NCBI GenBank assembly: GCA_964106645.2
Contig: OZ067039.1
Strand: one strand, 5' to 3'
From: Podarcis pityusensis
Lineage: Eukaryota
Length of the DNA stretch: 64,000 bases
Positions 1 through 64,000 of this stretch are shown here, piece by piece. Made by a program: the position numbers and the translations under genes. Within the stretch, counting starts at the first letter, position 1. Every line of letters begins with the position of its first letter. The notes beneath the pieces were generated by a model. It made no database searches and was not told the DNA's origin. It saw nothing but the letters and a program-made list of their open reading frames with translations.

Positions 1-1
1 T

Positions 2-1933
2 TTTATCTCCATCCTGAGCAAGTGCTTTGACTCGCCCTGGACTACTCGAGCCATCTCTGAAGTCTCTGGGGATAACCAGGAAAATGCATTCTTAGAGAAG
101 GGGTACCGGAGGAGGAAAAGCAGTGCTCCCAGCGAGACAGCTGAACTCAACCCCCCCGGGGGATCGGTGTCAGAAAAGAAGGTTTCAGAGACCTCCCCGG
201 TTAGCCTATTGGACAAAAAGGAAGGGGAGCAGGCCAAGGCTCTCTTTGAAAAGGTGAAGAAGTTCCGGCTCCACGTTGAAAAAGGAGACATCCTTTACAC
301 CATGTATATCCGCCAAACCGTTCTCAAAGTCTTCAAGTTTCTCGTCATCATTGCCTACAATGCAGCCTTGGTTTCCAATATCAGCTTCATTGTGCCATGC
401 ACTGTCAGGATGGAGGACATGACAGGCTATGACCATTTCTGCTGCAACCACACCAAAGCCCACCTCTTCTCCAAACTGGCCATCTGCTACATCTGCTTCC
501 TTGGCATATATGGCATGACGTGTCTCTACACGCTCTACTGGCTGTTTCACCGGCCGCTGAAAGAGTACTCCTTTCAATTTGCACGCAATGAGACAGGCAT
601 CAGCGACATTCCTGACGTCAAGAACGACTTTGCTTTCATGCTCCACCTCATTGACCAGTATGATTCCCTCTACTCCAAGCGCTTTGCTGTCTTCCTTTCT
701 GAGGTCAGCGAGTTCAGACTCAAGCAGATCAACCTCAGTCATGAGTGGACGGTGGACAAACTGCGGCAGAAGCTGCAAACCAACGCCCAAGGCCGGCTGG
801 AGCTCCATCTCTTCATGCTACCAGGGTTGCCTGACACCACCTTTGAGCTGAATGAGCTGCAGTCCCTGAAGCTGGAGCTCCTCAAAGATGTGACATTCCC
901 ACCCTCAGTGACTCAGCTGGCCCAGCTCCAGGAGCTCACACTGATCAACTCTCCCGTCAAGCTCTCTTTCACCTCTCTTATGTTCTTCCGTGAGCAGCTG
1001 AAGGTAATGACTGTGAAGTTTGATGACATCAAAGATATACCGCTATGGACCTACAACTTGAGAGGCTTGGAAGAGTTGCACATCTCGGGACTTTTCAGTC
1101 CAGAGATGGGCCGGGCAGGAACTCTGGAGAACCTGCGTGAGCTGAGGAATCTGAAGACCTTGACTCTGCACAGCAACATCTCAAAACTGCCACCTAGCGT
1201 GTCTGACGTTGCCGCCCATCTGCAGAAGCTCAGGATCTACAACGATGGGACTAAGCTAGTGACCCTCAACAACCTCAAGAAGCTCTTCTCTGTGCAAGAA
1301 GTGGAGCTGATAAACTGCAACCTGGAACGCATCCCCCATGCTGTTTTCAGCCTGGTGAACATGCAGCAGTTGGACCTCAAGGATAACCAGCTGCAGTCCA
1401 TTGCAGAGATCATCAGCTTCCAGCATTGCCGCAAGCTGGTGTGCCTCAAGCTTTGGCACAACCACATTTCCAGCATTCCTGAACACTTCCGCAAGCTCAA
1501 GACCCTAGAGCAGCTTGACCTCAGCCATAACCGCATTGAGGTCCTCCCTTCCCAACTATTCCAGTGTTCTAGGCTGCACACTTTGGACCTTTCCTATAAC
1601 AATATCCAGGTCATCCCCCCCGGGATGGGAGTCCTGCAGAGCCTTCAGCATTTTGCCATTTCTCACAACTCCTTAGAGGCACTGCCAAACGAAATCTTCT
1701 TCTGCAAGCAGCTCAGGGTTCTCAAAGTAGGACACAACAAACTGCACCGCCTCTCTGACCGTGTGAGTTGGCTGCCTTCACTCTCCACACTAGACTTGAG
1801 AGGAAACCCCCTTCAGGCCCTTCCCTTGGAGATTGGCCAGTGCCCAGTGCTCAAACGGAGTGGCCTGCTGGTGGAGAGCAGTCTTTATGAGGCGTTGCCT
1901 TTGGAAATTAGGGAGAAAATGGAGGATCAGTGA
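2..1933 (+). CDS. LRRC8E: LRRC8E (volume-regulated anion channel subunit), 5'-partial last coding exon: intracellular loop, TM3-TM4, LRR domain
   Basis: Frame +2 is open from base 2 ([23 protein letters not shown]...) to TGA at 1931-1933. LRRC8 motifs: [23 protein letters not shown]-type [46 protein letters not shown], then LRRs. E rather than C is assigned from adjacency to MAP2K7. The ORF-track start at 167 (GTG) is internal. Confidence 0.9.
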
Positions 1934-3446
1934 TGAGGAGAATGATAAAGGGGACAGGGGTGTCTTCTCATGTGTTGGCCCCATTGAATCCAAACATGGA
2001 CTGAATGGGGGAGCTGGCTGAAGTTCTATCTTCGGCTGGAACCAAGGAGGGAATGGGAACTTTTCACCCTAATAAGGGAGCAAAGGAACTGAAAAGACAC
2101 AACAAAGAGCAAAAGTAGAAAGTGACTTTTTAAAAAATAAACAACCCTGTTTTCTGAATGGATAAGACCACAGGAATTATCCATTGGGGCGGGGGCGGAA
2201 GCACAGCTACACCTGACCAAATCATCATTATAGCTATTTTTGTACATGTGTGGTGTACTCGTGTATCTTTGTGAAATGCCCTGGGGCTTTGCGGGATTGT
2301 TTTGTTCAAAACTCCTATCTCTGTTCCCTTCTCCTCATCAATGTGTTCAGCTCGCAGGCCTGTAGCTTACAAAGCCCATCTTTTGAGCTTATTAGAAAAC
2401 TTTCTTTTCTGCGGTTTCAAATGCCTATATATCATGGGGTGGGGAATCAGGGACAGGCAACTCTTCAACAGGGAAATAGCCTAATTCCTTTTACTTCTTT
2501 GTTCAAAGAAGGGCTGTGTTCCTTAGCACTGGACGGCCAGAGCACAATGCCTTCACATACCACTGACTGTAAGGAATCTTCTTATGTTTGTGTGTGTCTG
2601 TGTACATATGCATGTATACCTTAATCCCTTCTGGTTTCTGTTTTTGTCACATTCTAATCAGGGTGACATTGGATTATCAGTTCTGCTTGAGTGCTGGAGC
2701 TGAACTTTCTGGCTGTTCAGATCACTTCCCACTTCAGGCTAGGAGAGCCCCGCACCTCGGATCCTCTTCAGAACTCACTTCCTCCCTCATTGCCTTCTCA
2801 CGTAATTTCAGTGAGCACCACACATGGAAGAGAGAAGGAATACTGCACTGTGAAAACCCATCCTCACTACCACTCATGAAAAGCCACCTCATTTCCCCCT
2901 GGAGCCTTTAATCAGTTCTCCACATATTCTAATCCCAGCATAGGTTGAATTAGGGGAGTCGCTTTCTCACTCCTCCTATAAGCACAGACATTCTTCCTAC
3001 CCATTTTCTGTAATCAGAGCAGGTAAGTGCCTTTTGCTTAGCACATGAAGGAGATGTGGGACTCCCCCCCCCCCCTTTGGTTCAAGTTGGCTGAGCTGAT
3101 TTCCCAGGTGGCTTGGGCTTGCTTCTGTTTTGTCCCTTTGGGTCTCAGCTCTCTTATGGCCTCTTGAGACACAAGCAGACTCTTCTGGGCCTGCTATAAC
3201 CTGGCCTTCTCTTCCTGCTTTACCTGATTGCAGAGCACTTTGGGGCATGTAAAAGCCATTGGAAAGGGACCCTGCTTCCTCAATGGCAAAGCAACGCAAA
3301 GCTTGGTCTCAGAATCCTACCTGTTGGCAGCAGACTGCTTCATATCCAGTTAAAGTATGTTTAGAAAAAGTTTATTAAAGATAAGAGAGAGCTGAAATAC
3401 ATGGCATTAAGAAACAATAGTGCACACCTTTAGCAGATGCTGTGCT

Positions 3447-3448
<2 letters not shown>

Positions 3449-3528
<80 letters not shown>
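3449..3528. repeat. Compound microsatellite (CT)n(GT)n
   Basis: About 25 CT units followed by about 14 GT units, read directly. Confidence 0.95.
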
Positions 3529-3531
<3 letters not shown>

Positions 3532-4363
3532 GTTCCTAACCCCCCACTTGTCTTTGCTCATAGAGTTGCCTTGTCCTTAGAAACCTCACAATCTGGTCCT
3601 GGTCCGAAATAGTTTAGTTCATATGTCTTCGGCCTGATTGAATATATAGAGGTGGTTGGATAATGATTTCACCTTCCATTTGTTGAGAACTAGTTGCTTG
3701 AGGGAACTTACACAATAAGGGAGAGGTTGCAGTAGTCCCTGGTAATTATTGTTTTGGTTAATGAAGTCCTAAATTCAGAGCCTGCTGAACAACGAAGGCT
3801 GAAGTCTTGTGCGCACATAACGGGAATAAATCCCACTTGCACTTGAGTCAACATTCATAAGACCAAATAGAAAGGTGGCAAGGAGACAGCCATATCTATT
3901 TGCACTCTCACCAGCAGTCCTTGGGACTCAGCTGCTGAGCCTTGGTTTTGACAGGAGCAAGCTGTGCCCTACACTGGGGCAACCAGCCAGACAGCCAGCC
4001 AATGCTTCATACCTGGGAATGGCACAATAGGCCTCATTCCTCATGCCATGGTGGTTGGAGGAGGAGGAGGAGATGGGTGGGAATGTGAAGCAATGGGTGG
4101 GAAGGAGAACCTGCTATGTGACTCACTGGGAGAAACCAACCAACATAGCTGCATTTTGGGAGTTCTTCTGAGGCCAGAAAATTGGAAGAGGCTGTTCTGC
4201 AGCAAGGTTGTAAAACAGGCCTATTGTGCAGGATCATGTTTTAGTAGCATGAATAACACTGATGGTGTTAACACTGTGGCGGGAGGCCTGGTGTTTACAT
4301 GAGCATGCAGCAAAGTAATTATTTGGCAGTTCACATTTTTGTTTTCCTGGCAAAATGCATTTA

Positions 4364-6092: not shown

Positions 6093-9000
6093 AACAGCAG
6101 CACTACCACCATACAAATGTATGGAATGAATGAATGAACGAATGAATAGGTCCCCAAATACTTGTTTGGATTACACGGGGGTCTTGTGTATGAAAACACG
6201 GCAGTTTAAGCATTTATGAGCTACGTCACTAGGTTCATTGGCTGTGTGTTGGAGCGTAATGCCACCTAGTGGTTAAAATTATTCAAGCACCTCAAAGAGC
6301 AATAATAAAATGCACTTTTATTTGTGAAAGATGTGGCTGTTCAAACTCTACTAGACAAGGCATTTCAGGTATAAGTCAAATAGCTGATTCTTCAAACCCC
6401 ACTGAAGACTCAGCCTATGCACAACTGCGATTTGTTCTCCTATGCGATCAATTAGCTGCAGACTTCCTTTTGGAAGGGAAGGTTATACATTTTTAAAGGG
6501 AATAAATAAATAGGTGGCTACTGTCCATTCCTAATATGGAATTAAGCCTCCTTACCAGTCTTCACAGCATACAGATTTCTGGGATTGCAACCAACCACAT
6601 TGTTCGGCTGTGTCAGGTCTTACAAGACTGTATGTGTGTAGAGTGGGTGATTATGTTCCTGTATTGTATAAGTGAAAAATAATGCAACTTTAAGGAGAGA
6701 TTTTGCAAAACTGAATCAAGGAATACAGTACATGAAACCTTGACCAAAATATATTGCATCTGTGCCAACTCTGACCACACATCAGGAAGGGCGGGACCTA
6801 CCAGCTGATACATGCAAAAGATATGAGTCAGTCAGGTTTCAGGTCTTGTTATGGGACCTAGAGAAGCTGAGGGAGCTGAGAAAGAACGAGTGGGTGGTCC
6901 AAAACAGGGACAGTGGCTTAGGGTGCAGGCATCACAACAGAGAAGAGTCCCTCAGACTGGGGCTAAGGCTTTATTGGGCCTAGTGGACAGGGATTGGCCT
7001 TTGAGGGTCACATGACTGAATGCTCAGGTAGACCAGTATTACATGTAGTTGAAGCAGAGTTCAGCCTGCCAAACATGCAGTTAAAGCAGACTCCTGGTGC
7101 TGCAGAGATTAAGACACCAGTCTGCTGGGAGTCCTGGTTTGTGCACACACAGTGGGTGCCATGTAACAGGCCTCTGCCTCCAGGGAGCTTGCAGCCTACA
7201 AGAGCCAGTATGCTGTGATGGCTATCATGTTAGTATTACACCAGGGATATGTGGATCTTCAGACTGACCTGTATCAACTTGTGTGCCCTTCCCTTTCTCT
7301 TGTGTGGCTAGAGTTTCCATGTGCGTCACATTCTTCAAAGTTTCAATTAGTCCTTGATTCATTCTGAAAACCTTTTAGCCTCTTTATTTCACAGTTGTGT
7401 AATGCAGGAACAGATTTCTTGCTCAAGCCACTCCACCCAACCCTGATGACCTTATGGCTGTTATTATCAGCCTTCCCTACCTCACAGGGTTGTTATGAAG
7501 AGAAAATGAAGGCAGGGAACTGTTTTGTGGGTGAGGAGTTCTCTTGTGGTTTAGTGGTCGTAGCTTAGCCCCTTCCTTCCCTTCTTCCTTCCTTCCTCCC
7601 CCCCCCCCCCATTTTTCACAGTGAGTTACAGAAGACAGAATAAGAAGTGTGAGTGAGGGAGTTTGTCACAACTGGTAGCAATCCCTTTGCAAGCAAATGA
7701 ATTCCGAGCAACGAGTTTTGCTTCCCTCCTCCTTCCTCCAGTCCTTTCGGCCTGCCTGGAGCTGCCATGGAAACGGAATAAAGCCTCTTGCACTGAGTAC
7801 AGTGTGGTGTGCAGGCTTAATGCACAAGCAAAGGAGAGGGTCTGGGAGAGGAAGATCCTTGCCGGCGGGAGAGAAAAGAGCAGAGGTTGTGCATGAAGAG
7901 TTCTAGAACCGCCTGCAGGTGAGGAATTGATGCCAAATGGGATAAGGAAGTCAGAGAGGGAGAGAAGGTTGGCATGTAACCCACAACCAGTGTTATAACC
8001 ACAGCCAAAAAAATGCTTGTGTCTGTGCATGCTAAAACCACCCTTCTAAATGATATTTAAGGACAGCCTGCTGCAGATCTGGCAACAGTGAAGTGGTTCT
8101 GTTTCAAGGCTGAGTGTCTGGGAGTGCGTGTGTTTTGTTGGTAGATGTTTTAGGGTGCCCCCAAACTGTTGATATTTTGTGGGAGGAATACAAACACATA
8201 CTGGAACTTTAGGTTTGCACAGTTAAAGTGGATTGCAACCCTCTGTCATCCTAGTATCACAAATCCACTTTAAATAAACAACATTGGACTTTTCACAGTT
8301 TACAAAGTGATGGGGAAATGCATTCAAAAGTGTGGGATGATGAATTATTATTATTTATTAAATTTGTATAACGCCCTATACAGTACTTGCAGGTCTAAGG
8401 GCGGTTCAATGACACATAAAGACCCTGCACGCACATAAGGGTGAATGTAAGATAAATACTCTTTGTTGTATAACTACCCCATAAATAAATCAGAACAAAC
8501 GCTCAATGAAGATCAGACATTGTCCAACTATTGTGTAAGCTTTGTGCAAGCATATCAGGATGAATGTTGAATAAACAGGTTGTCTGGAGGAGCCCCGCGT
8601 ATTGTGGACAAACAACAACATTGTCAGCAGCAACAGCCAAAATGAATTGGGAACTAAAGCAACAGCTGCTGTCAGAGACACCAGGATTAGATCCTCTCAC
8701 AAACAACTTGTAGCACAAATGTGCAAATCACTTATTGGTATCTCTGCTTTTCAACTTCAAGTAACAGTAATTCTTCCATCTACTCAGAGTAAGATATCAT
8801 TAAGCCTAGGCCATTTCCCACTTGCCTGATCCACTGTAGGATGTGGAAGACAAAGATGGGGAAATGGAAAGTTGCCTAAACACCACACAGTAAACCACCC
8901 TCTGTACAGCCTTAAGGCATTTTTCCATCTTTCCGCTTTCCACAAAGCAAAGTCTGGTTACAGGATCTAAGGAGAAACTGTGAGTAAGGAAGTGTTGTTG

Positions 9001-9269
9001 CTATTCATGACTTGGAGATAGGTCTTGCTTGGCGAGCATCTCGGCAGATGGCTATATGAATTATATTCTTAGAATTTTTTAAAAAAACACGTATTGAATA
9101 TTTTTCAAGCCACTCCATCTCATTGCAGTTATTCTTATTATTCAATTAGGTATTTATATCCTGCTCTTCTGCGCCAAAAGCATAATCAAGACAGCATGCA
9201 GGATAAAATAATAACAAAAACAAACTAAAATGCAATGTTAAAAACAATAACAAAGAAGCCACAATAAAA

Positions 9270-9597
9270 ACGCAGGGTTGTTTTTAAAAAATTACCTGGG
9301 ATGCATATAGGCTCTGCTCAGCGCTCCCTTTAAAGAGTCACGTGGAGCGTGTGTGCAGCTCTTGGGGGCTTTTCCCCGAGGATGGAGAAGGGCAGCCCGT
9401 CAAGTCCCTTCTCCCACCTTGCGGAAAAGCCCCCAAGAGCCACACACAGTGAAGCGGGAGAAGGGATGGAAGGGTTTTAAGCAAGAAAAGCGAGAGCCGC
9501 TTACATGCTCTGCGCAGAATATTTTTTTCTTGCTTTCCCCCTCTAAAAACTAGGTGCATCTTACGGTCAGGTGCATCTTATGGAGCGAAAAATACGG
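9270..9597. mobile_element. Tc2/pogo-type non-autonomous DNA transposon fragment with internal hairpin
   Basis: Terminus GGTGCATCTTATGGAGCGAAAAATACGG|TA (CCGTA-type TIR); internal inverted repeat at about 9352-9448. Left boundary approximate. Confidence 0.55.
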
Positions 9598-10267
9598 TAA
9601 GAGTCCATAGGTCAGGGCTGGGAAACCTGTGGCTCTCCAGATGTTGTTGCAGACTCCTCAGTGGCAAAGGTTGATAGGAGCTTGAGGACTCAGCTACATT
9701 AGTAAGGAAAAAGTGTTTTATATGCGTTATAACACTGTGACACCAGATAGCACTGTGGAATTCCATCTTTCACCAACATGCTTTCCCACTATGTTGTTTA
9801 CAACGCGTTTTCCTGAAACACTTTCTTTATGTGTCTAGATCCAGCCTAAGACCAGTGACAACTGGAGGGCTACAAGTCCCTCCCTGCCCTAGATTATTAT
9901 TTTTTCACATTTGGAATGGCAGTTCCAACTCGGCATCCACAGATGCCCTGCTGCCCACATTGGTGCCCCTGGGCGGGGGAGGACAGATTATGAGCTTTTA
10001 TTTTTTATTTAAAAAAAAAGTAAGGCTCTAGCCTTCCAGGAAAGTTATGAAGCAAAACATACAGGTACCCTTCTAAGTGATTTCTGCAAGATGGGGGCTG
10101 CTGCCTGTCAATGCTTTTAACCAACGAATGAAGCTGTGATTGATAAATGTGTTGTTTAGACACCAGGCATTAGGAATCCCCCTGTCCTTTAGCACACTTT
10201 TCCTGTTTCTGTCTGTCCTATTTATAGTCTTTGGATTCTCTTTAGTTTGCCCTTCTTTTCCCCGTAG

Positions 10268-10322
10268 CAGCCAGGATGCATCTTCCCTAAGGTCTCTTGG
10301 TGTTAACCAGGGCTTTTTGCAG
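10268..10322 (+). other. Candidate non-coding 5'UTR exon of the LRRC8D-like gene
   Basis: Pyrimidine tract, then TAG|CAG acceptor (10265-10270), and a perfect donor CAG|GTAAGT (10323-10328), about 630 bp upstream of the coding-exon acceptor. Confidence 0.4.
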
Positions 10323-10782
10323 GTAAGTGGGTGCAGGATGGCAGCCTAGACTTTGGTTTATGGTTGACGCTCAGGAAACAGGAGGTTCTTGTGTCCTTGG
10401 CAGCTGTATGGCAGGCAGAAACTCAACAGGTCAAGGCAAGCCTTTCCTAGTATGGAAAGCCTCGCCATAACTGTACTGTCTCTAAGTTTGGGTTATGCCT
10501 GACCACTTTGTTCATCAATGACGGCGCTGTCAATAGTGCCACACAATGCCTGCTGTACAACTACCAGGAGAGGAGCATTCAGTGTGGCAGCATCAAAATG
10601 ATGGAACTCCCTCCCAATGTGCATTATGCAAGCGCCTTCTGTTTTGTAATTTCAAACACATTTCTGTTTAACCAAGCCTTCCTTGAAGTGTGACCAGTTC
10701 TGTATTTTAGTCATTTATAGCTGAACAGTTTTAATGTTTAACTTTTTATATTGTTCCGTGTAACTTTGTATTGCTCACAGTT

Positions 10783-10785
<3 letters not shown>

Positions 10786-10863
<78 letters not shown>
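10786..10863. repeat. (GT)n(AT)n microsatellite
   Basis: Read directly. Confidence 0.9.
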
Positions 10864-10864
<1 letters not shown>

Positions 10865-10953
10865 ACTAGCTAAATGTGCTAAACAAGCAGACTTTGTTTC
10901 AGTACAATAGCCAAGGATGTTACTCAATTCCCACTTACCATTTGCTTCTAGTG

Positions 10954-12117
10954 ATGTTTAACCTGACAGAAGTGACCTTCCTCGGTGATGCCCACGCTCG
11001 GTTCCAGACTCTAAAGCCTTGGTGGGATGTCCTGATGGACTACTTGGTAGTAGCAATGCTTATGGTCTCTCTCCTCTCAGGTACTCTGCTGATTTCTGTT
11101 GACCATATGACCTGCTTGCCACTGAATTACAAGCTAAATGAGACCACAGCAGCTATGCTCAAGCCTGGAGCTATGGACAGTGCCACCAATGAAGAGTTTT
11201 CTGCTGAGAACAGTGGACGCCCAATCAACCTTGACTACCAGCAGTACCTGTACATAAACCATGTCTGCTATCAGAATGCTTTGCCTTGGTTCTCCAAGTA
11301 TTTTCCTTACCTAGCACTTGTCAACTCACTGGTTTTAATGGCAAGCAGCAACTTCTGGTTCAGGTACCCTAAGACGTCCTCAAAGATCGAACACTTCTTA
11401 TCCATCCTCATGAAATGCTTTGAGTCCCCTTGGACCATCAAGGCCGTCTCTGAAATGGTCTACCAGAATTTCGTAGACCTACCCAAAACCACGGATACTA
11501 GAGGGTGTCAAGAACAATTTATTTCCCCTTCATCCTCTCCTATCCTTGACTGGAAGGAGAGGGAGCAGGGCCGGGCACTCTTTGAGAAGATCTGCAGATT
11601 CAGGGCACATGCTGAAGGTGCCAGCTTGATTTATATGGTCTACATGGGACAAACAATCTTCAAAGTTGCCAAGATCCTAACTGTGCTGGGCTACACCTCC
11701 AACTGCATAGGAGCCATCTCCTTTGAACATGTTTGCTGGCTGGACACAAAGAACCTCACCGGCTACTCTGTTTTCCTCTGTAACCACAGCTTGGCTTTCA
11801 TTCTGCAGAAGTTGATGGTGACCTACCTGTTCTTGGTATTCCTCTATGGGGTGGTGGGGGCTTACCCACTGATGTGGCTGCTGCGGCAGCCGCTGCAGAA
11901 GTATTCCTTTAAGCAAATGCGAGAAGACAGTCACTTTCTTGGCATCCCAGATGTCTACAACGACTTTGCTTTCCTCCTGCACATGGCTGATCAGTGCGAC
12001 CAACTATACTCCTGGCGGTTTGCCATCTTCCTCTCAGCCATGAGCAAGAGCTCTTTGCTGGATGTGGGCCTTGAACACAAGGCAAGTATTGAAGGGCTGC
12101 AGCTGCATGTGCATTGA
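10954..12117 (+). CDS. LRRC8D-like protein lacking the LRR domain (387 aa, pannexin-like 4-TM domain only); single coding exon; functional status uncertain
   Basis: ATG at 10954, 2 nt after the acceptor TTTGCTTCTAG. MFNLTEVTFLGDAHARFQTLKPWWDVLMDYL resembles LRRC8D MFTLAEVASLNDIQPTYRILKPWWDVFMDYL. D-type motifs AISFEHVC, KCFESPWT, FLLHMADQCDQLYS; four extracellular Cys kept. TGA at 12115-12117 falls where the LRR region should start. Confidence 0.8.
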   Translation: MFNLTEVTFLGDAHARFQTLKPWWDVLMDYLVVAMLMVSLLSGTLLISVDHMTCLPLNYKLNETTAAMLKPGAMDSATNEEFSAENSGRPINLDYQQYLYINHVCYQNALPWFSKYFPYLALVNSLVLMASSNFWFRYPKTSSKIEHFLSILMKCFESPWTIKAVSEMVYQNFVDLPKTTDTRGCQEQFISPSSSPILDWKEREQGRALFEKICRFRAHAEGASLIYMVYMGQTIFKVAKILTVLGYTSNCIGAISFEHVCWLDTKNLTGYSVFLCNHSLAFILQKLMVTYLFLVFLYGVVGAYPLMWLLRQPLQKYSFKQMREDSHFLGIPDVYNDFAFLLHMADQCDQLYSWRFAIFLSAMSKSSLLDVGLEHKASIEGLQLHVH

Positions 12118-12385
12118 TACTCAAGGGCATCAGAGAACTAAGGCTTCACAAGCTGCCAGGCTACCTAGGGCCCTCTTCTGTGAAATGGAAGTCCCGAAGC
12201 TTGCAAACAGTCCCAGACTAAAGCAGCCAGAAAAATAGGTATACTAACCTTTCTCTATCCTCATTGGTCAAGATGGGCCCCACTGACCTAGGAAAGCCCA
12301 CAGTATTCCACATCACATTTCCTGACATTACAACCTGGGGCTCTCTCTCTCAGGGGTCTCCATCAGTATCTCTCTAGCAACTTTG
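12113..12385 (+). pseudogene. Frameshifted remnant of the LRR-domain start of the LRRC8D-like gene
   Basis: Fragments in changing frames: IDTQGHQ / ELRLHKLP / LPRALFCEMEVPKL ... VFHITFPDITTW / LSLRGLHQYLSSNF. They align to LRRC8 RNAQDKQELHLFMLSGVPDAVFDLTDLDVLKL...LHVKFTDVAEIPAWVYLLKNLRELYL. Confidence 0.7.
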
Positions 12386-15819: not shown

Positions 15820-16620
15820 AATACTGGCGAGGAGAACGTCCAAAATATCATTGACGGCGCGGCCGCGTTGATACTGAGCTCGGGCAGCACTTTGGTGCCC
15901 TCGCGCATGCGCGAGCCAGGAAAAACCGCGAGGCAAAACAAGCACAGCGGGCAAAAGTGGAGCCGTGCCTTTGCGGTGGGCGGAGGAGGATGATGATAAT
16001 ATGGTGGCCTGGTTGGTCCTTTCGGCGCGTGCGCACTGCGGTGTTTGTGTATTCTGGCTGCGCGGTGGCGGCAGCGTCGGCGGCTCCGGGGGAGGGGGGG
16101 GAAGATGGCGGCGTCCTCGCTGGAGCAGAAACTGTCCCGCTTGGAGGCCAAGCTGAAGCAGGAGAACAGGGAGGCCCGGAGGCGCATCGACCTCAACTTG
16201 GACATCAGTCCGGCCCGGACTCGGCCTAGTAAGGGAGGCTTTGAGGGGGGAAACGGGGGCGGCGGCAGGGGAGGCTCCGCGGAAGGCACCCCCCCGCTTG
16301 GGCGACTGACACGGGCCCGCCTGGGCAGGAGCCCCGGGGCCGGAGGGATGCGGGGCGGGGATGGGAAGAGCCGAGCTGCCCCGGAGAGGGGCCGGTAGAG
16401 AAAGGTCCTCCCGGAGAAGCGAAGGGGTCGGGAAACCCGGGGCGGGGAAACAAGGGGGCTCTTGTTTACCACGGAGTCTGAGGGAGGTGGAGGCCCAAGG
16501 CCAGGACACACCGGGGCAGGGAGAAAGAAGACCCAGGGGAAAGGTAAAGAATCCAGTGGGGAAGGGACTTGGAGGAAGGCGTGGGCGTGGGGGGCGGGGA
16601 AGAGTTCGAGAAGGAAGAAA
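15820..16620 (+). promoter_or_regulatory. MAP2K7 CpG-island promoter with NRF1 and YY1 motifs
   Basis: Only strongly CpG/GC-rich segment of the window. Palindrome CTCGCGCATGCGCGAG (15900-15915, NRF1 consensus); second NRF1-like GCGCGTGCGCA near 16025; YY1 motif AAGATGGCGGC overlapping the start codon (16102-16112). No TATA seen. Confidence 0.8.
16105..16228 (+). CDS. MAP2K7: MAP2K7 coding exon 1 (MAASSLEQKLSRLEAKLKQENREARRRIDLNLDISPARTRP)
   Basis: Matches the MKK7 N-terminus; Kozak AAGATGG; donor A|GTAAGG; 124 nt, phase 1. Confidence 0.97.
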
Positions 16621-19600
16621 CATGTAGGGAACAGAGTTGGGACCTGGGACCTAGTGCCCGGGCTATGATCTGCGTGTGGGTTTTTATAGGAGGACTCAGG
16701 TGGAAGGAGAAGAAATGAGTGTATCAGTGGGGGGCACCGACAGGAGGTCATTGGGGACCTTAGGTTAATCGATCTTCCTGGGGATCGGAAACCACCTGTG
16801 TGTTGAGCTTATGATGTGATGGCGTTAGTGGACCGTGGTTCTTTGAGATTTTCTTTAAAAATGAGGACAGTACTTAGAGCTCAGAGTTGCTTTCGTGAGG
16901 CCAAGAGGAGTTCCCATGTACTGTATTCTGATTAGAAAAACTGATATACAAGGAGTTATACTGTAACTGTTATACTGGAGGAAGTAAAAGTGGATTTAGG
17001 ATCCCCCAATTGCCGTATTATAACTATGTTTTTAAAGTTAGGGAAGTCTAAGCAACTGCTCACACCCTGCAGTGGAGAGGGAGGAGGGGTGGGTTAGGAA
17101 TACCATGAAATAGCGATATGCTGTGCTCAGAAATGTCCCCAAGTGTATGCTTCTCTAGATCAGGTTCCTGTCATTTGCTGGACTAGTATCTTTTTGTAAA
17201 CAAAGAAGTTCACAAGAGCTCTTTATTTAAGTTCTAATTTAAATACAGGAAAGTTCCATATTGTGTATATAGCAGTGCTTCCAAAACTCATATGGTTTCC
17301 CCACCCCATCTTGGATTAAAATTGAATGCATCTTTCACCCCATACTCAGATGTGTGTCAGGGATCCTTCTTGTGTCATAGTCTAGTTAATAATGCATCTT
17401 GGTTTACTGTTTCTGTTTAGTTATCTTCATTGGTGTTTCTAGGAAGACCAAGCACTTGCCAATTGTACCATGAACTATGGCAAGGACTTACCTGTAGCTT
17501 CCATATGCTGAGGGATATAGACAAGTGTAGGCATCCAATATGGTGACTTAATTCTTTCAAGACACACTTCAGCCTCTCTCATGACACATTAGATGCTCCA
17601 GCATGCAGTTTGGGAATCACTGATAGCAAGATGTGAATATATTCACTTGAGAAGAGAGCTGAGAGAGGAACTTAATTATTTGGCATATTTATAGGCCTCC
17701 CTTTAATAAAGTTGTCAGGGTTGTTCACAGCCAGAAAAGCTCAGTCAGTAGAATAGAGTATGGGTCAAAACCTACAAACTTGAGCTACTGGTTTTGAACA
17801 GACTAAAATTTTCATGATCAACCAACAGCTCAAGTTTTTATGCTTACTATAGCTGTTTGACCCATATTTTGAGATACAGAGCTGAAATTTAACATGGAAT
17901 AATATTTTTTTGTACCACTGAAGGATTTCCCCCTGTAATTGTATTGTATTGCTACTAGTTTACTTGGCACACAGGACAAAATATTAGAAAGTGTATTGAT
18001 AACATGTATAAGTTTGTCATAAGCAACATAGAATGTATATTACAATGATAGTGACATTGAAAAGATTTGGGATATTTTTAAATCTGATTTCTAATTGTTT
18101 GGCAATCCTAGCTGTATAGTCTGTCTCTGTGAATAAGGCACTTACTTGTGTGGCCAAGGTGAAATTGCCAGGGCGAGAGTGAAATGAACAAAAAATCTAA
18201 ATCATAACTATTTTCTGACAAGCCAATGGCTTAATAGGTTGATCAGAGTACCTCTGATAGTCTTACTGTGGTTGGAGCAAATCTCCAATTATAACAACTG
18301 AGATTTAAGCATGCACAGCTCAAAGTTTTGGTGCAGACACAGGGCTCTTACCTGTGCAGGTAGGTAGACTCTACCCCATTCAGCATAGTGCCTGGGATGT
18401 CTCTGTCCCTGCATTTGCTTCTACTGCATGCATTTGCCTGCTGCTGGAGCAGAATCCAGAAGTAGCTATGTCACTGAGAAAGGGAGAAGATTTCCCTTTA
18501 AAGTCAGTTAGAGGAGGAAAAATGTGAAGCTCATCTGTTCCTCACTGCTTTTAAAGTTGAATTACCTCTGGAGCATGGGAGCTATTTCAACACTGTCTGG
18601 ACCTGCAGTGCCGTGATAATGTGCACAAACAAACATCATGTGAGTGGATGCTTATTTATTAATTTTGATGATTTATGTCCCACCTTTCAATCAAACAATT
18701 TTCAAGGCAACTTACAAGCAGGAGGTAACAATACAACCCTCCACCCCCACCCCCAATTCACACATACAATCTAGCAGCTGCTGGATGGGACCAGAGCTTG
18801 CTTTTCATCAGCTCTCTAGTCTCAGGGCAACTGGCAATTGAAGTTGAGTGTTCTTTCTAGAAGCAAGGGGGGGGGAGGAAGCAAATTCCGGCAGCTGCTC
18901 ATTCTCTGGCTGATGAATGGGGCCAGACTGGTCTCCCTTTTGCCTTACTTCCTGTGAGGCAGGGGGTGCAGGTTCCCAGTGGCCCTGCTGTCCTGGCCAG
19001 AGACAGAATGGGATTCTCTTCTGTTTTCTGGTCCTTGTATTACACGATCTCTGCTGAAATTGAAATTGGAATGTGGTTGTTTCTTATCCTGGTGGTGTGG
19101 GAAGTAATTATATTATCCCATGCACCCACGTGGTTCTTGTATCTACATAGTACTGGGGTTTTCTGAATCCAGGATATAGACGAGCAGTTCCAATAGTCTA
19201 ATGCTAATATTTGAATTCTTCTTTAATATCCAATAAAGAACAAAGAACAGATTCAGTTTTGAGCCACTTTTCAAATCAGCTCACCTGGTGCAAGATGTCG
19301 GGGGCGGGGGATGGGAAGGGATGCTTTAGCTCCTACAACTAGTTGTGGGTTTAATGTGAGTGTAATGCTTTCTGGTTCCACTTTCCATTGTGATTTTGTG
19401 GCTTGGATGTAGCTTCTTTCAATCCTGAGTCTAGAAGCTGGAAGTGGAGATTACACTGTGTATGTTACCATAGGTTAATAGGTTATGTGTGTGTAATTAG
19501 TTAGGGGAGGTTTCTGATAACCCTTCCATGCATTCAGAGACTATGTGAGGAGGATTGTGGGGCTGCATGAGCTAATCCTGGCTCTATTGCAGCATCTAGC

Positions 19601-19647
19601 AGCCCTGTACCCCACACTTTATTATGTGAAAAGAGGCTTGCTATACT

Positions 19648-19730
19648 AATAATAATAATAATAATAATAATAATAGTTATTTATTTGCTACCCATCTGAC
19701 TGGGTTACCCAACACTGTGGGAGGCTTCCA
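19648..19730 (-). mobile_element. (TAA)n tract plus L2-type 3' tail fragment
   Basis: (TAA)n then TTATTTATTTGCTACCCATCTGACTGGGTTACCCAACAC; related copy at about 26990-27065. Confidence 0.45.
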
Positions 19731-21403
19731 ACAAAATAGGAAACCACGGTAAAACATCAGTCGTGTGCATCAAGGTTCTCCACATAAGTTGGGATCTTGA
19801 TGCACAGATGTTGGTATATTTGTAGAGCCCCTTCTCCTGTGTGCTAATTGCAGGTGAGTGGGCCTTCCTGCTGTGTAATTGGCAAGAGCCAATTCCTGCT
19901 CATGTGGTTCTGCAAACCCCTTAACTTTGAACACATGGGGAGAGTCATTGAACTAACCCCCCATCCAATTGAATAGCCATTTCTGATCTAGGCTTTCTAA
20001 ATATTTATTCAACGTACTTCTGTTTAGGTCACATTCTGTCTTTCTGAAATCTTGTATGCTTACTTTCCACACATTTGTGTGAGGGAGATAGTGTTCATGA
20101 ATGCCTAATAATGTACCCCATTAACCTTAAGAATGTTTACAAAATATTTCACAAGAGTGACAGAGTCATGGTCCTTCCCTAATTAAGAAGCATTTCTTCA
20201 GTAAGAATAGATGCGACCTTCTTATATGGTATAGTGGAACTAGAACCAAGGTCTGTATCCTTCCTACTTTGTCGGATGACCCACAGCTATTTAACAGAGA
20301 AAGTCTAATTTACCAGATCGTAGAGGTAGAGGAGGTTTTGTATTCATTTAAAAAGGACAAGACATACACTTGGTTTCTCTAGTGGAATGAGACAAGGGTA
20401 GTGTAGGTGAGAGATTAAAAGGAGAAACCAAAGTTTATGCTTTATGGAGAGTCCAGATGCACCTCCAGGATTTTTGTTTTACACACTAGCCTCAAACTTA
20501 AGTGTAATGTGAGTCTTTCAGTCTGCTTTATGCAGAATAAAAAGTTTTTATTGAAGGTGACTTTTATGAATTTCAACTCTTTCTATTTTGTTCTGGGTAG
20601 TCCACAAAGGCAACAAAAAGCTATTATGTACTTGATGTTTTTTGCCGTACTCTCAAGCTTCTGATATAAAATTCCTGAATTCTACACTGCACTTTGATTC
20701 ACATTTCAGGCTATCACATCTCATTTTGCATGTGGGTATCCTTTTAGAGAATGAAATTTGAGAATGACTTATGTGGCCATGTCTTCATAATTGCAGGCTT
20801 TTTGTAAGAAGAAGTTAATAGTAGTTTCTTGTAGAATATGTGTGACTTCTGGTTTGTGCTGTTGGGTGCTTATATGCCAGATGTAAATGAACATGATGAA
20901 AATGGAGTGTTCAAAAGTTGCCTTGCTGAAATTTAACTCTTTTAAAGCAGATCATGTTAATCCATTTTAACTAATTATGACAATTTAAGAAACCTTTTAA
21001 AATTATTAGCATGAGGCAAGTAGAATTTTGACAAGTTGTTACATTGGTATAGACTTCTCATACTTATAATTCCTGTAACAATACTCTTGTGTAAAACACT
21101 TTTCAGTGATAATGTGATCATAGCAACTCTATAAAGTTGTATGTACCACTTTTAAGAAAGGGGCTGTAGTTTAGAGAGATTTGCTTCCCAGTGTCTCTTA
21201 GTGAACCCATGACTAAAATGAGTGGGAAAGTAAAATTATGACTGAGACATGGCTTCTTGATTTATTTTATTAAGATGGTGAGGATCAGTTCTTGTTTATT
21301 CAGGCTCTTACTTGCAAAAACAGAGTGGAAATTGGGATTTCTTATACATTTACAGTTAGTATTCACAATAAATGGTGGGTTGAATTGAAGTTTTGAAGAG
21401 TTA

Positions 21404-21895
21404 CAGTGGTGCCCCGCAAGACGAATGCCTCGCAAGACGGAAAACCCGCTAGACGAAAGGGTTTTCCGTTTTGGAGGTGCTTCGCAAAACGAATTTCCTA
21501 TGTGCTTGCTTCGCAAGACGAAAATGTCTTGCGAGTTCCTGCAGGGTTTTTTTCCTCCCCCCCCCCTTTTTCCCAAGCCGCTAAACCGCTTATCAGCTGA
21601 TGGCTAAGCCGCTTATCAGCTGATCTTTAAGCCGCTTAACAGCTGATGCTAAGCCGCTTATCAGCTGATCTTTAAGCCGCTTAACAGCTGATGCTAAGCC
21701 GCTTATCAGCTGATCTTTAAGCCGCTTAACAGCTGATGCTAAGCCGCTTATCAGCTGATCTTTAAGCCGGCTAAGCCACTAATACTGTAGCGCTAAGCCG
21801 CTAAACCTCTAATGGGCTTGCTTCGCAAGACGAAAAAACCCGCAAGACGAAGAGACTCGCGGAACGGATTCTTTTCGTCTTGCGAGGCACCACTG
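21404..21895. mobile_element. Tc1/mariner (Tigger-like) MITE with internal 45-bp tandem repeat
   Basis: TA TSDs at 21402-21403 and 21896-21897; TIRs CAGTGGTGCC(C/T)CGCAAGACGAA; CpG-rich, so probably young. Confidence 0.9.
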
Positions 21896-22018
21896 TATAA
21901 AAGTCCAAGAGAATATATTTGGAAGTACAACTAGGTTTTTATTGTGAATGATGCCACCATTGGTAGGTTATAAAATTGATTTCATTGTGACAGAAGTCCT
22001 ACCAAGTAATCCTTATGG

Positions 22019-22501
22019 CACAGTTTTTCAACCATTTTGGGTCCATGGCTCCCTTGACCAACTACATTCTTTGTGCGATACCCCTGTGGGGCTCAGGAGC
22101 CCAGTTATGTCACCCCTTGCCTGCCGAGCTGGCAGCTCCCTTGTGGAGGGCTCCCTCAGCCTCCTCTCTTCTCCCCATGGGAGTCCTCTGGGCATCTGCA
22201 GCTGCTGCCCCTGGTCTCTGAGCTGCCTTGCTTGCCCCAAAGAGAGGTGCCTCCTCTCACTACCCCACAGGGGCCTGGGAAGCACGCCCTGGTCAGCTCC
22301 AGACACACCATTCACCTGGGAGCTTGTAGCCAAGGCTGCTGCAACAAACAACTGTGCAAGCCTTTGAGAGGCAGAGATGCAAGAAGGCATCATATGAAGG
22401 TAGGGAAGGAAAGAGGGACAGAGGCCAGTATTGCCCATGGCACCCCTGAACATCATTCAAGGCACCCCAGGGTGCTGTGGCACACTGATTGAAAACTACT
22501 G
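22019..22501. mobile_element. hAT-type non-autonomous DNA transposon
   Basis: Ends CACAGTTTTTCAACC... and ...TTGAAAACTACTG; imperfect 8-bp TSD CCTTATGG/TCTTATGC. Confidence 0.55.
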
Positions 22502-22792
22502 TCTTATGCCTCAGTCTGCAAGAAGCAACACCAGAGAGCTTTTCATTGTATGTATATGATTTGATGTTATGAGCAGGTGTACTTTGTTTGCTGTTCATAT
22601 TGCTTATAACATTACGTATATCAGTTAGCCAGTTAATTAACCTCCATGTGTTATCATGAACCAAAGCAAGGAGTTCATATCCTATTTCAGATCTTGTTCC
22701 CTTTCAGGGCATGTAGTGGTGGTCCAACAGAATGAAAGAATAAATAAGGTGATGGTTCAGAGAGTGGTGGTTTTCCTTTGATAAGCTAGAGT

Positions 22793-22930
22793 ACGGGTGG
22801 GGAGCCTAAGGCCCTACAGAGGTTGTTTGAATCCAGTTCCCATCATCCCTGACAATTGGCAGCGCTCTCTGAGTCTCATGGGAGTTGGAAGTCTATTAAC
22901 TTCTGGAGGACCCCAGGTCCTTCATCCCTG
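22793..22930. mobile_element. Short palindromic hAT-like MITE (related copies at about 14470-14610, 26850-26965, 31320-31460)
   Basis: Self-complementary body: CCAGTTCCCATCATCCCT...ATGGGAGTTGG...CTGGAGGACCCCAGGT...CCCTG. Confidence 0.5.
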
Positions 22931-38406: not shown

Positions 38407-38554
38407 GTGAGGTTTTTTCTTTTTACATTTAAATCTCACATTTCCCCCATCTAGACATTGGCCCAGTTCACATGTCATGCTAAACATGGAACGAATAGCA
38501 TGCTGGTATAGGCTACTTAATAGTACTCCTTCCTTGCTCCAGCTGTGGCAGATT

Positions 38555-41202: not shown

Positions 41203-41345
41203 GTTGAGCTGGCTACAGGTCAGTTCCCCTACAAGAACTGTAAAACAGATTTTGAAGTCCTCACCAAGGTGTTGCAGGAAGATCCTCCCCTTCTCCCAAA
41301 CAACATGGGATTTTCTGTGGATTTCCAGTCCTTTGTGAAAGACTG
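41203..41345 (+). CDS. MAP2K7: MAP2K7 coding exon 10 (VELATGQFPYKNCKTDFEVLTKVLQEDPPLLPNNMGFSVDFQSFVKDC)
   Basis: AG/GT; 143 nt. Confidence 0.97.
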
Positions 41346-42264
41346 GTGAGTGAAGTGCCTTAAATTCATGTTATGTAGAGCAGCTGCTTCAACATTTCTT
41401 ACATAGACAGGAAGCCCTGCAGTTCAGCTGGTTCCTCACTTTCCTGCTGAACTCTTGCACACCAGTTGCTTTCTCAGATATTGGCTAATGTTCATTCTAG
41501 GGCACCCCATCTTCAGTACTATTAATAGTGTATATAAAAGAATTGGAACTGTTCTGCTTGTTCAAACTGGTACCATGCTCTTCTAAAGACTGAACTCAAC
41601 CTGTGCTGGTGATTTCCACCTAGAAAGGAAATCCCATATCTGCCTCCAGGACAGCTGTGCTTAAATTCTGGGCTAGCACATCGTTGTGTATGACCTCTTC
41701 TTGTCTACACATTCCTGGCTCTTACCTCTTTTCTGTGTCTGATGTACCGGTTCTAAAGGTGTAAGAAGTCCTTCATTGCCACGGAAATAAAAAGTAACAT
41801 GTCATAAGTTAGTTACATTTCCCCATCTTTCCTTGTTTCCATTCCTTCCAACAATTAGGCAGCTGTAAATGAATTGCACTCCTTGCAACTGGCATTGACA
41901 CTTCCACAAATGTTCAAACAGAAAATCAACTTCTGATAGTGATTGTTTTGTTCCAGTTAACTTTGAGCTTATGTGTCCAACTTGCCACTCCTGGATTCCA
42001 TCAAACCACCCCACGTAAGATTGTTGCAAACTGCCATGGGATACTGGGCATAGGAAGTTGACCCTGAAAGATTATTGGTATGGCAGGATAATGGACTTCA
42101 TCCTGTTTGGCTGAGAGAGTTTGAAACTTAGAGTAGACCTATGTCAATATGAGCTCTGTTTGCAAGGATCCATTATGCATCAGGTAGCGGAAACATGCCG
42201 TGTTGGTTGCTCCATAAAATAAATTGGATCATGTGTTTTGAATGTGTGTTTCTGTTATTTCTAG

Positions 42265-42310
42265 CCTTACTAAAGATCACAGGAAGAGACCAAAGTACAA
42301 CAAGCTACTT
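42265..42310 (+). CDS. MAP2K7: MAP2K7 coding exon 11 (LTKDHRKRPKYNKLL)
   Basis: AG/GT; 46 nt. Confidence 0.96.
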
Positions 42311-42706
42311 GTAAGTATTGGTCACACCTCTTTCATTGTGAATATTTTAAAAAATCCCCCAGGGCTTGGAAAAAGGCCACAGTGGGTGCTTCTGCCAACC
42401 CTTAAAGTTTAGAAATAACCAGTAACATTTCTTGGAACTGGTTTGTGCCAACTGGCATGGAAGCTGAGATTAATAAAGTGACATCCTTTCTTTTCTCCAC
42501 ATAGTTTCTTTAAAGGAGAGGGAAAGTTCTTTTACTTTTTTATTTGACTTTGGTCAGATTTTTCCCTGCTCATGTTTGGTGCTGTTGTGTATCCTCCTTG
42601 TTGCTTAGCTATAGCTGACAACTGTTGCTCACAGCTCTGTAGAAATAACACAGGTGGTGTGACTCCCTTGCTTATTTTCCATCTCGTTTTGCCTGTTCCT
42701 TTGCAG

Positions 42707-42844
42707 GAACATAACTTCATCAAGCGTTATGAGACACTGGAAGTGGATGTGGCATCCTGGTTCAAAGATGTCATGGCTAAGACAGAGTCACCCCGCACGA
42801 GTAGCATCCTTAGCCAGCACCACCTGCCATTCTTCACCAGGTAG
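42707..42844 (+). CDS. MAP2K7: MAP2K7 last coding exon (EHNFIKRYETLEVDVASWFKDVMAKTESPRTSSILSQHHLPFFTR*)
   Basis: Acceptor TTGCAG|; TAG at 42842-42844. Spliced CDS is 1272 nt without exon 2 (423 aa). Confidence 0.96.
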   Translation, partial: EHNFIKRYETLEVDVASWFKDVMAKTESPRTSSILSQHHLPFFTR

Positions 42845-62801: not shown

Positions 62802-62974
62802 CCACCTGGCACCATCTTGCTTGCCTCCCCATGTCTGCCTCTACCCCACATCCCGTCCTCGGCTTCTGGGAATCACTGCGAAAAGGCACCGGATGCACCA
62901 GCCGGGGCCGCTCTACCCTGGGGCAAGAAGTCCATGTCATCAGCCTGAAGAAGGGATTGCCGGCAAATGGCCAG
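62802..62974 (+). CDS. TGFBR3L: TGFBR3L coding exon 2, betaglycan orphan-domain start (ATWHHLACLPMSASTPHPVLGFWESLRKGTGCTSRGRSTLGQEVHVISLKKGLPANGQ)
   Basis: Aligns to TGFBR3 CELSPVSASHPVQALMESFTVLSGCASRGTTGLPQEVHVLNLR; phase 1 in, phase 0 out. An alternative in-frame acceptor lies at 62777. Confidence 0.85.
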
Positions 62975-63398
62975 GTATGGGAGATCCCCATCCATACCAC
63001 CTTCCCATGTATGAGGCTGTATGATGGGTCTTGCTACAGCTCCATTGGATACCCAAACAAGATGGCCGTTCAGCTTGGCACTACAGTTCAAGGTGTCTCA
63101 GTCAGTCAAAAAGGCAAAACTCCATTTCAGTCACTTCTTCACAGTTGTCAGGGCCTCTCTTAAGTCACAGAAGCGTTAGGTTAGCCAAGTTGTGAGAAGC
63201 AAAGAGGAACACTCTTGCGCAGGGCCTGCTTAGTGCTGGGGGTGGGAACATGCCTCACCTGCTGAACATCCAAGGGGTAAGTTGCTAGGCCGCCTTTGGT
63301 GGTATATCCTACCTTCTCTGGTTCTTTTCCAATCCCTTCTCCATTTCGCTCTTTGATCATGCATGGAGAAGGTACCTGTCCCCTTGATCCTCTTTCAG

Positions 63399-63518
63399 GT
63401 AACTCTGATAACTCTGGACCCAGATCCCCACGACAGAGGCCCCATCTTTGTGCTGTATTCCCGGAAGCCTGTGCATTGGGTGTTGCTGTCTCCCCCTGGA
63501 AAAAACTGGACCTTCCAG
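63399..63518 (+). CDS. TGFBR3L: TGFBR3L coding exon 3 (VTLITLDPDPHDRGPIFVLYSRKPVHWVLLSPPGKNWTFQ)
   Basis: Aligns to TGFBR3 VTLHLNP...VVFLLNSPHPLVWHL; TTTCAG| and CAG|GTGAGA; 120 nt. Confidence 0.85.
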
Positions 63519-63737
63519 GTGAGATGGGATAGAGGGCCAAAGGGCCTAGAGAACATCATGGGGATCACTGAGGGGGTCGTTGGAGTCCCTGCTCTATGCA
63601 AGCATAGAAGATGAGTGGCAGCTATGGGAAGGGTGGATGGAAAAGCTAATTTGCTACCTCCACAGCACTTTTACAAAATACTTTCAGATCTAGCTCTGTT
63701 TGTCTTCAGAAGCATCTTGTGTAGTAAGTTCCTATTC

Positions 63738-63850
63738 TTCCCATTTTACAGATGGGGGAAATTGAGGCTGAGGGAGGCTTGCCTAAGGCCACCCAGTGAG
63801 TCTGTGGCTGAGGTGGAACTTGAACCCAGATCTCCCAGATTAAAGTGCAG
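63738..63850 (-). mobile_element. MIR/CORE-SINE fragment
   Basis: CCCATTTTACAGATGGGGGAAATTGAGGCT...TTGCCTAAGGCCAC...GAACTTGAACCCAG. Confidence 0.7.
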
Positions 63851-63949
63851 AACTGTTCAACTTTAATGCACTCCCCAGCGTGGGGTGTCAGAGAGGGGGG
63901 AGGTTCTCCAGGCTAGTATATTTTACCTTTGCCTTCCTCCTATCTACAG

Positions 63950-64000
63950 GTCTCCCCTGGCTCTAATGTTTCAGCCCCAGGGCCAGTGGCTTCTGCTGAG
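63950..64000 (+). CDS. TGFBR3L: TGFBR3L coding exon 4, 3'-partial (VSPGSNVSAPGPVASAE)
   Basis: Acceptor TCTACAG|; matches TGFBR3 VSEGSVV at the equivalent exon start; runs off the window. Confidence 0.75.

What the first reader, a model, noticed from the sequence alone, without database searches (positions are those of the whole stretch)
1..64000. Window looks like the ohnologous twin of the LRRC8C-LRRC8D...TGFBR3 region
Seen: a C/E-type LRRC8 followed in the same orientation by a D-type LRRC8 with a single coding exon, then MAP2K7, then a betaglycan paralog. Known: human LRRC8B/C/D are tandem on 1p22 with TGFBR3 in the same region, while LRRC8E-MAP2K7-TGFBR3L are neighbours on 19p13. Inference: the D-like gene is the whole-genome-duplication sister of LRRC8D (a sixth LRRC8 lineage lost in mammals), not a recent retrocopy or a tandem duplicate of LRRC8E.
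Basis: partly seen in the sequence, partly recalled or inferred. Interest (0 to 1): 0.7.

Follow-up and report, generated by a model that had tools for sequence, protein, structure and literature searches.

The report
Pore-only sixth LRRC8 channel subunit
Lizards and snakes carry a sixth, ancient subunit gene of the cell-swelling (VRAC) channel, likely the genome-duplication sister of LRRC8D, which has lost its whole leucine-rich regulatory half yet stays conserved, and which likely joins the channel and makes it easier to open, much as a human disease truncation does.

Summary
The D-type gene belongs to a clade running from chimaera to snakes, grouped with LRRC8D. A recent copy of LRRC8D and a copy of LRRC8E are both rejected (AU p 1e-7 and 6e-38). 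Four paralog pairs link this region to the LRRC8B/C/D-TGFBR3 region, which fits whole-genome duplication.

The ORF (10954-12117) is only 387 aa and stops right after the pore; no LRR domain follows. All 21 squamate orthologues aligned are pore-only, while most turtles, amphibians, lungfish, coelacanth and sharks keep the LRRs. The pore is under purifying selection (66 of 76 family-invariant columns fixed, against 78 of 288 others), and a contig from a probable RNA run shows it spliced. Hard-shelled sea turtles share a separate frameshift at the same boundary.

Conservation ends within four residues of the human LRRC8C truncation that opens VRAC constitutively. I read it as a natural LRR-less accessory subunit, likely gate-loosening; a damping role is the main rival. 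No current has been measured.

The parts
1..1933 (+). LRRC8E, 3' part of the main coding exon with complete LRR domain (first coding exon lies about 1.6 kb before the window)
   Evidence: best named hits LRRC8E; E clade in trees
7813..7918 (+). 5' non-coding exon of the D-like gene (start approximate)
   Evidence: contig of run X19 joins 7916 to 10950 with GT..AG at cut +2; donor GT at 7919
7919..10951 (+). intron in the 5' UTR; acceptor AG ends 2 bases before the ATG, the same offset as the predicted acceptor of the genome's own LRRC8D
10954..12117 (+). pore-only LRRC8D-sister subunit, 387 aa, single coding exon, stop TGA
   Evidence: model of low confidence (pLDDT 56) with four membrane helices matches LRRC8A:D pore
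12116..12235 (+). decayed, frameshifted trace of the start of the LRR domain, now 3' UTR (weak match)
   Evidence: one orthologue gives a linked second HSP, 24 bits
12750..12755 (+). AATAAA, likely polyadenylation signal
   Evidence: contigs of probable RNA runs stop at 12720-12801 (weak hint only)
16105..42844 (+). MAP2K7 (start codon to stop codon)
62831..62974 (+). betaglycan (TGFBR3)-like orphan-domain exon of the TGFBR3 paralog; the gene continues beyond the window
   Evidence: ZP-C exon at G000:C2:44274458-44274949

Best explanation
The gene at 10954-12117 is an ancient sixth LRRC8 paralog, likely the whole-genome-duplication sister of LRRC8D, that in lizards and snakes encodes only the conserved pore domain and likely works as an LRR-less accessory subunit that co-assembles with LRRC8A and makes the channel easier to open. 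Shown: age of the clade, linkage to LRRC8E, loss of the LRR domain in every squamate record found, purifying selection on the pore, a spliced form in one probable RNA run. Inferred: (1) duplication by genome doubling; (2) co-assembly with LRRC8A, because accessory LRRC8 subunits need it and LRR-less human LRRC8C still assembles with it (PMC11729881); (3) activation, because the gate-coupling helix CTH3 has decayed in squamates and its release activates VRAC (PMC13586329); (4) permeability to organic osmolytes, because the filter residue is the D-type aromatic (Tyr95).
For: Tree and AU tests. Four paralog pairs between G000 C2 and C6: LRRC8E/C, D-like/D, TGFBR3-like/TGFBR3, and a TBC-domain pair with exons 73-87% identical. 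Same-contig proxy: with E in 17 of 18 species, with C/D in 1 of 13. 16 of 16 squamate D-like rows lack LRR Pfam hits, and the snake part of a fused model ends the same way. Selection: 66 of 76 columns invariant in 47 full-length LRRC8s stay fixed in 21 squamates, against 78 of 288 others (Fisher p 1e-21); site variability correlates with full-length orthologues (rho 0.57); identity to other squamates 72-88% against 82-91% for LRRC8E. Pore cysteines, Thr44, Trp160 fixed in 21 of 21. 10 of 18 listed DNA differences to related species are synonymous (omega about 0.24-0.35, p 0.003-0.02). Conservation falls after residue 364 = LRRC8C Ser396; the Leu400 position is Leu in 47 of 47 full-length rows but in only 10 of 21 squamates (Pro in 5). 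Human LRRC8C frameshifted at 400 assembles with LRRC8A and is active under isotonic conditions (PMC11729881).
Against: The lacertid protein in this window ends at LRRC8C-equivalent 419 and keeps Leu at the 400 position; human LRRC8C cut at 419 assembled but gave very low currents (PMC11729881). No current, flux or interaction has been measured for any member. The synonymous count uses only the 18 ORF rows the tool displayed. The RNA label of the runs is a guess, the splice joint is seen in 1 of 4 runs, and they come from related species. Turtle and squamate branches are both long (tool warning). In coelacanth the D-like gene shares a contig length with LRRC8D and LRRC8B, not tested against E. 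One unnamed gecko-like contig protein (P0135) is frameshifted inside the pore, and no colubrid, elapid or teiid record appeared, so the gene may be lost in some squamates.
Confidence: 0.55

Rival explanations
1. Same origin and same pore-only protein, but it is a damping subunit: it co-assembles with LRRC8A and gives channels that respond poorly to swelling.
For: The window protein ends at LRRC8C-equivalent 419 with residual likeness to the LRR N-cap helix; human t419 assembles yet gives very low currents (PMC11729881). The sea-turtle frameshift falls just behind that point.
Against: The stretch behind residue 364 is poorly conserved, ends anywhere from about 409 to far beyond 419, carries Pro at the Leu400 position in 5 of 21 and lacks the Trp409 equivalent in 21 of 21, so the native t419 structure is not what selection has kept.
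Confidence: 0.27
2. The protein has left VRAC and forms its own pannexin-like large-pore channel, or has a non-channel membrane role.
For: Squamate-specific fixed changes in the intracellular subdomain (Cys348 in 21 of 21 where others have Tyr/Phe; Trp354 in 20 of 21 where others have Lys/Arg) and a shortened first intracellular loop (38-43 residues against 49-93 in full-length orthologues). [quoted passage not shown]
Against: Accessory LRRC8 subunits rely on LRRC8A, whose loop controls trafficking (PMC13586329 discussion; PMC6363415 passages); the pattern of conserved sites still follows the LRRC8 family.
Confidence: 0.13
3. It is a slowly decaying, transcribed pseudogene.
For: Half the protein is gone; it evolves faster than LRRC8E and LRRC8D; databases list only genes that still have an open frame, which biases the sample; the lineage seems lost in mammals and birds.
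Against: An open pore frame in geckos, skinks, cordylids, lacertids, amphisbaenians, anguimorphs, iguanians and snakes, with strongly uneven site conservation. In a simple neutral simulation the frame stayed free of stops in 2.7% of 2000 runs at 0.1 substitutions per site and in none at 0.3.
Confidence: 0.03
4. On origin only: the gene arose by a large segmental duplication on the jawed-vertebrate stem rather than by genome doubling.
For: Lamprey LRRC8D-type sequence is outside D+D-like in FastTree (84) but unresolved in the ML tree; only four paralog pairs were checked; coelacanth contig exception.
Against: Two LRRC8 pairs (C/E and D/D-like) both split before sharks and bony fish, and the paralogous block spans 1.5 Mb on C6. 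That these regions belong to the chr1/9/19 genome-duplication paralogon is recalled knowledge.
Confidence: 0.1

Closest known systems
LRRC8D (VRAC accessory subunit; PDB 6m04, 9dx7, 9t5m)
   Same: Closest paralog by sequence, tree and fold; single coding exon with an acceptor 2 bases before the ATG; aromatic residue at the filter position.
   Different: Separate gene since before the shark/bony-fish split; in squamates no LRR domain, shorter extracellular and intracellular loops, faster evolution.
Human LRRC8C truncation at Leu400 (TIMES syndrome; PMC11729881; PDB 9ezc)
   Same: Whole pore kept, whole LRR domain lost, constrained sequence ending at the CTH2/CTH3 boundary.
   Different: A dominant disease allele of a C-type subunit, against a fixed, D-type gene conserved across squamates; squamate tails run 10-20 or more residues further, into the range of the low-activity t419 construct.
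Full-length 'LRRC8D-like' / si:ch211-106h11.1 database genes of sharks, bichir, gar, perch, lungfish, coelacanth, amphibians, turtles
   Same: Orthologues by tree and linkage to LRRC8E. I recall that Abascal and Zardoya 2012 may have named an extra non-mammalian paralog (LRRC8F); I could not read that paper.
   Different: They keep the LRR domain (701-857 aa in the 34 rows).
Pannexins / innexins
   Same: Four-helix large-pore subunit without LRRs; LRRC8 is proposed to have arisen from a pannexin plus an LRR domain (PMC6363415 passage).
   Different: This protein is a secondary loss nested inside LRRC8; only the LRRC8-type pore family matched.

Membership tests
LRRC8 (VRAC subunit) family | Pannexin-like four-helix pore domain | tested here: met
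   PF12534 E 2e-108; fold match to LRRC8A:D E 2.5e-24 from a low-confidence model
LRRC8 (VRAC subunit) family | Four conserved extracellular cysteines and N-terminal Glu6 / KPWWD motif | tested here: met
   Cys54, 105, 261, 276 in all 21 squamate rows; Glu6 and WW in 20 of 20 rows that reach them
LRRC8 (VRAC subunit) family | C-terminal leucine-rich repeat domain | tested here: not met
   Absent from the squamate protein and from the DNA up to MAP2K7; present in non-squamate orthologues. So: an LRRC8 by descent, not a canonical LRRC8 protein
LRRC8 (VRAC subunit) family | Co-assembly with LRRC8A into a swelling-activated anion channel | not testable with these tools
   Needs pull-down and patch clamp
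LRRC8D orthologue group | Groups with LRRC8D of the same lineage and lies beside LRRC8C | tested here: not met
   AU p 1.1e-7; the genome's true LRRC8D is on C6 beside B and C
Ohnologue pair with LRRC8D | Duplication older than the shark/bony-fish split | tested here: met
   Chondrichthyans in both groups
Ohnologue pair with LRRC8D | Neighbours are paralogues of the partner's neighbours | tested here: met
   E/C, TGFBR3-like/TGFBR3, TBC-domain pair; 17 of 18 same-contig proxy
Ohnologue pair with LRRC8D | Timing matches a vertebrate genome doubling relative to cyclostomes and amphioxus | tested here: inconclusive
   One lamprey row, resolved in FastTree only
Retrocopy | No introns, new genomic site | tested here: not met
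   5' UTR intron with GT..AG; conserved site beside LRRC8E
Pseudogene | Neutral decay of the reading frame | tested here: not met

The most novel reading that the evidence does not exclude
Squamates have carried for about 200 million years a natural LRR-less VRAC subunit, a return to a pannexin-like architecture, that gives LRRC8A heteromers a constitutive, swelling-independent osmolyte and anion leak: a fixed wild-type version of a human gain-of-function disease allele, with hard-shelled sea turtles repeating the loss independently.
Probability: 0.35. Interest if true: 0.88.

Novelty: new variant of a known kind. Interest (0 to 1): 0.74.

Why it matters
How the LRR domains gate VRAC is an open question, so far probed with engineered cuts and two patients. 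A subunit that lost the domain and was then kept by selection, with 20 or more natural tail variants straddling the activating (400) and silent (419) human cut points, makes that question directly testable. It also clarifies the family's history: C/E and D/D-like are parallel pairs from one duplicated block, so jawed vertebrates had at least six LRRC8 genes and mammals kept five.

Tried and rejected
Recent copy of LRRC8D and tandem copy of LRRC8E: rejected by AU tests. A hidden LRR exon downstream: none found. The 1209-aa rattlesnake record P0001 joining LRRC8E to this gene is most likely a fused gene model (it still shows adjacency). Complex prediction of the LRRC8A pore with this protein gave no verdict (score 0.02, alignments not used); it is no evidence either way. 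The run search listed no holder on record as RNA; four guessed-RNA runs were laid. No DNA run was laid, so there is no DNA control for the splice joint or transcript end and the synonymous count rests alone. Pfam scan of 79 plus-strand ORFs from 43-64 kb did not detect the betaglycan exons; a PDB search did. Literature: no paper in the held library has 'LRRC8F' or 'ch211-106h11'; 'LRRC8D-like' occurs in 2 seabream papers (listing only); searches showed no account of a squamate pore-only LRRC8 in titles or abstract starts. Abascal and Zardoya 2012 is not held, and most subscription papers are not searched, so the sixth paralog may already be in print.
Full report
Observation. The window comes from a lacertid lizard (97% identity to a Podarcis cluster) and is G000:C2:44206001-44270000. 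It holds, all on the plus strand, the 3' part of an LRRC8 gene with pore and LRRs (2-1933), a second LRRC8 ORF (10954-12117), MAP2K7 (16105-42844) and an exon like the betaglycan orphan domain (about 62831-62974), whose ZP-C exon lies just past the window. The first gene is LRRC8E.

The second ORF is 387 aa and ends in TGA right after the pore. Pfam finds only the LRRC8 pore family. Searches with the LRRC8E protein over the whole window and with the LRR parts of 16 of 19 full-length orthologues (three lacked my anchor motif) over 12001-15800 found only a weak frameshifted trace at about 12116-12235. The other five LRRC8 loci of this genome have open frames of 725-871 codons that run into the LRRs.

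Origin. Of 159 homologues listed (one search showed the best 120 of 883), 53 were closest to this gene's clade. A FastTree of 153 pore domains and an IQ-TREE LG+G4 tree of 52 chosen rows place the gene in a clade with chimaera, sharks, rays, coelacanth, lungfish, bichir, sturgeon, amphibians and turtles (100/97), inside LRRC8D plus D-like (100/100); gar, bowfin and perch members join (names). AU tests reject grouping with squamate LRRC8D (p 1.1e-7) or with LRRC8E (p 6e-38), and do not reject LRRC8D as its own clade (p 0.41). LRRC8C and E form a parallel pair with sharks on both sides. The tool warns that the turtle and squamate branches are both long. The lamprey row is outside D plus D-like in FastTree only.

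Synteny. On C6 lie LRRC8B, C and D (72.02-72.18 Mb), TGFBR3 (73.06 Mb) and a TBC-domain gene (73.57 Mb). On C2 lie LRRC8E, the D-like gene, MAP2K7, the TGFBR3 paralog and a TBC-domain gene (44.31 Mb) whose exons are 73-87% identical to the C6 one (the names EVI5/EVI5L are recalled). Using the recorded contig length as a proxy, the D-like gene shares a contig with LRRC8E in 17 of the 18 species I found with both values, including a 453-kb turtle contig, and with C or D in 1 of 13 (coelacanth). A contig from probable RNA run X19 skips 7919-10951 with GT..AG ends; the acceptor lies 2 bases before the ATG, as does the predicted acceptor of the genome's LRRC8D. It is not a retrocopy. Genome doubling is the simplest cause, but timing against cyclostomes is unresolved. 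No mammal, bird, crocodilian or tuatara name is among the 53 rows; this is absence from capped lists.

The pore-only form is old and selected. All 16 squamate D-like rows carry no LRR family, and cluster look-ups add more species. The 21 complete or near-complete squamate sequences aligned are 359-432 aa and cover geckos, skinks, a cordylid, lacertids, an amphisbaenian, anguimorphs, iguanians, python and vipers; two partial rows (P0135, frameshifted in the pore, and P0137) were left out. Squamates have a history of over 200 million years (PMC10379679, abstract start). Of 76 columns invariant in 47 full-length LRRC8 proteins, 66 stay fixed in all squamates, against 78 of 288 other columns (p 1e-21); identity to other squamates is 72-88%, somewhat below LRRC8E (82-91%). 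Of 18 ORF differences displayed for related species, 10 are synonymous (omega about 0.24-0.35); this is a displayed subset. One contig spans nearly all of the ORF in 3 of 4 runs laid; the RNA label is the tool's guess. A neutral simulation kept the frame stop-free in 2.7% of runs at 0.1 substitutions per site and in none at 0.3. Databases list only open frames, and no colubrid, elapid or teiid record appeared, so losses within squamates are possible.

A second loss. Caretta, Natator, Eretmochelys and two Lepidochelys species have 430-459 aa models that leave the frame at the same point at the LRR start, and RefSeq flags four cheloniid genera as low-quality models; their pore is 93% identical to Emys and the read-through LRR part 83-87%, whereas five other turtles show similar values in both parts; the open-frame leatherback also shows 93 against 87. 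This rests on database proteins, not on DNA.

Mechanism. Window residue n equals human LRRC8C n+32 at the C-terminal end (numbering inferred from the primers and variant positions in PMC11729881). Conservation falls after residue 364 (Ser396). The Leu400 position is Leu in 47 of 47 full-length rows but in 10 of 21 squamates, and Trp409 is lost in 21 of 21. In PMC11729881 (passages, results section 9 and discussion read) LRRC8C frameshifted at 400 lost its LRRs, still assembled with LRRC8A and gave currents under isotonic conditions; a cut at 379 did not fold and a cut at 419 assembled but gave very low currents. PMC13586329 (abstract and discussion) shows that disturbing the matching LRRC8A Leu402 releases helix CTH3 and opens the channel. 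I therefore infer an accessory subunit that joins LRRC8A, removes one or two LRR domains from the ring and lowers the opening threshold, with a D-type aromatic filter (Tyr95 in 20 of 21). Against this, the lacertid protein ends at 419 and keeps Leu400, so damping is a serious rival. Squamate-specific Cys348, Trp354 and a short first intracellular loop suggest remodelling after the loss. The monomer model is low in confidence (pLDDT 56) and matches LRRC8 pores.

Known or new. Databases already hold these genes as 'LRRC8D-like'. I found no description of a sixth paralog beside LRRC8E or of a squamate pore-only form in nine library searches, read as listings; I also read passages of PMC6994961, PMC12182595, PMC13586245 and PMC6363415. 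Abascal and Zardoya 2012 was not available; I recall that it may name an extra paralog, so the lineage itself may be known. No supplements were read.

Verdict. The stronger result is a conserved, naturally LRR-less LRRC8 subunit of squamates: a new variant of a known kind, interest 0.74, with its function untested.

Noticed in passing
P0136, P0451-P0460 (sea-turtle database proteins): Hard-shelled sea turtles share a frameshift at the start of the LRR domain of the same gene, giving 430-459 aa products; the LRR remnant diverges faster than the pore.
   Followed up: partly
P0284, P0428-P0432 (carpet sharks): A further LRRC8D-related paralog that falls outside D, D-like and the lamprey row in FastTree: a possible seventh lineage.
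   Followed up: partly
window 62831-62974 and G000:C2:44274458-44274949: The lizard TGFBR3 paralog keeps an N-terminal orphan-domain exon as well as ZP-C; human TGFBR3L is recalled to be much shorter.
   Followed up: partly
P0012/P0181, P0028/P0224, P0017/P0179 and others: Shark, bichir and lungfish proteins named 'LRRC8C-like' fall in the LRRC8E clade, so LRRC8E is as old as jawed vertebrates.
   Followed up: partly
P0025, P0086, P0434 (coelacanth): D-like, LRRC8D and LRRC8B-like share one contig length (172 Mb), the one exception to the linkage pattern.
   Followed up: no
P0135 (unnamed contig protein, gecko-like): Frameshifted inside the pore near residue 275 of the window protein: assembly error or a lineage-specific loss.
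   Followed up: no
P0138, P0423 (gar, pikeperch): Short models (487 and 514 aa) of fish D-like genes that end inside the LRR domain, while close relatives are full length; probably annotation.
   Followed up: no
window 54764-55258: A 165-codon ORF that reads like the C-terminal end of a LINE reverse transcriptase (label recalled, not searched).
   Followed up: no
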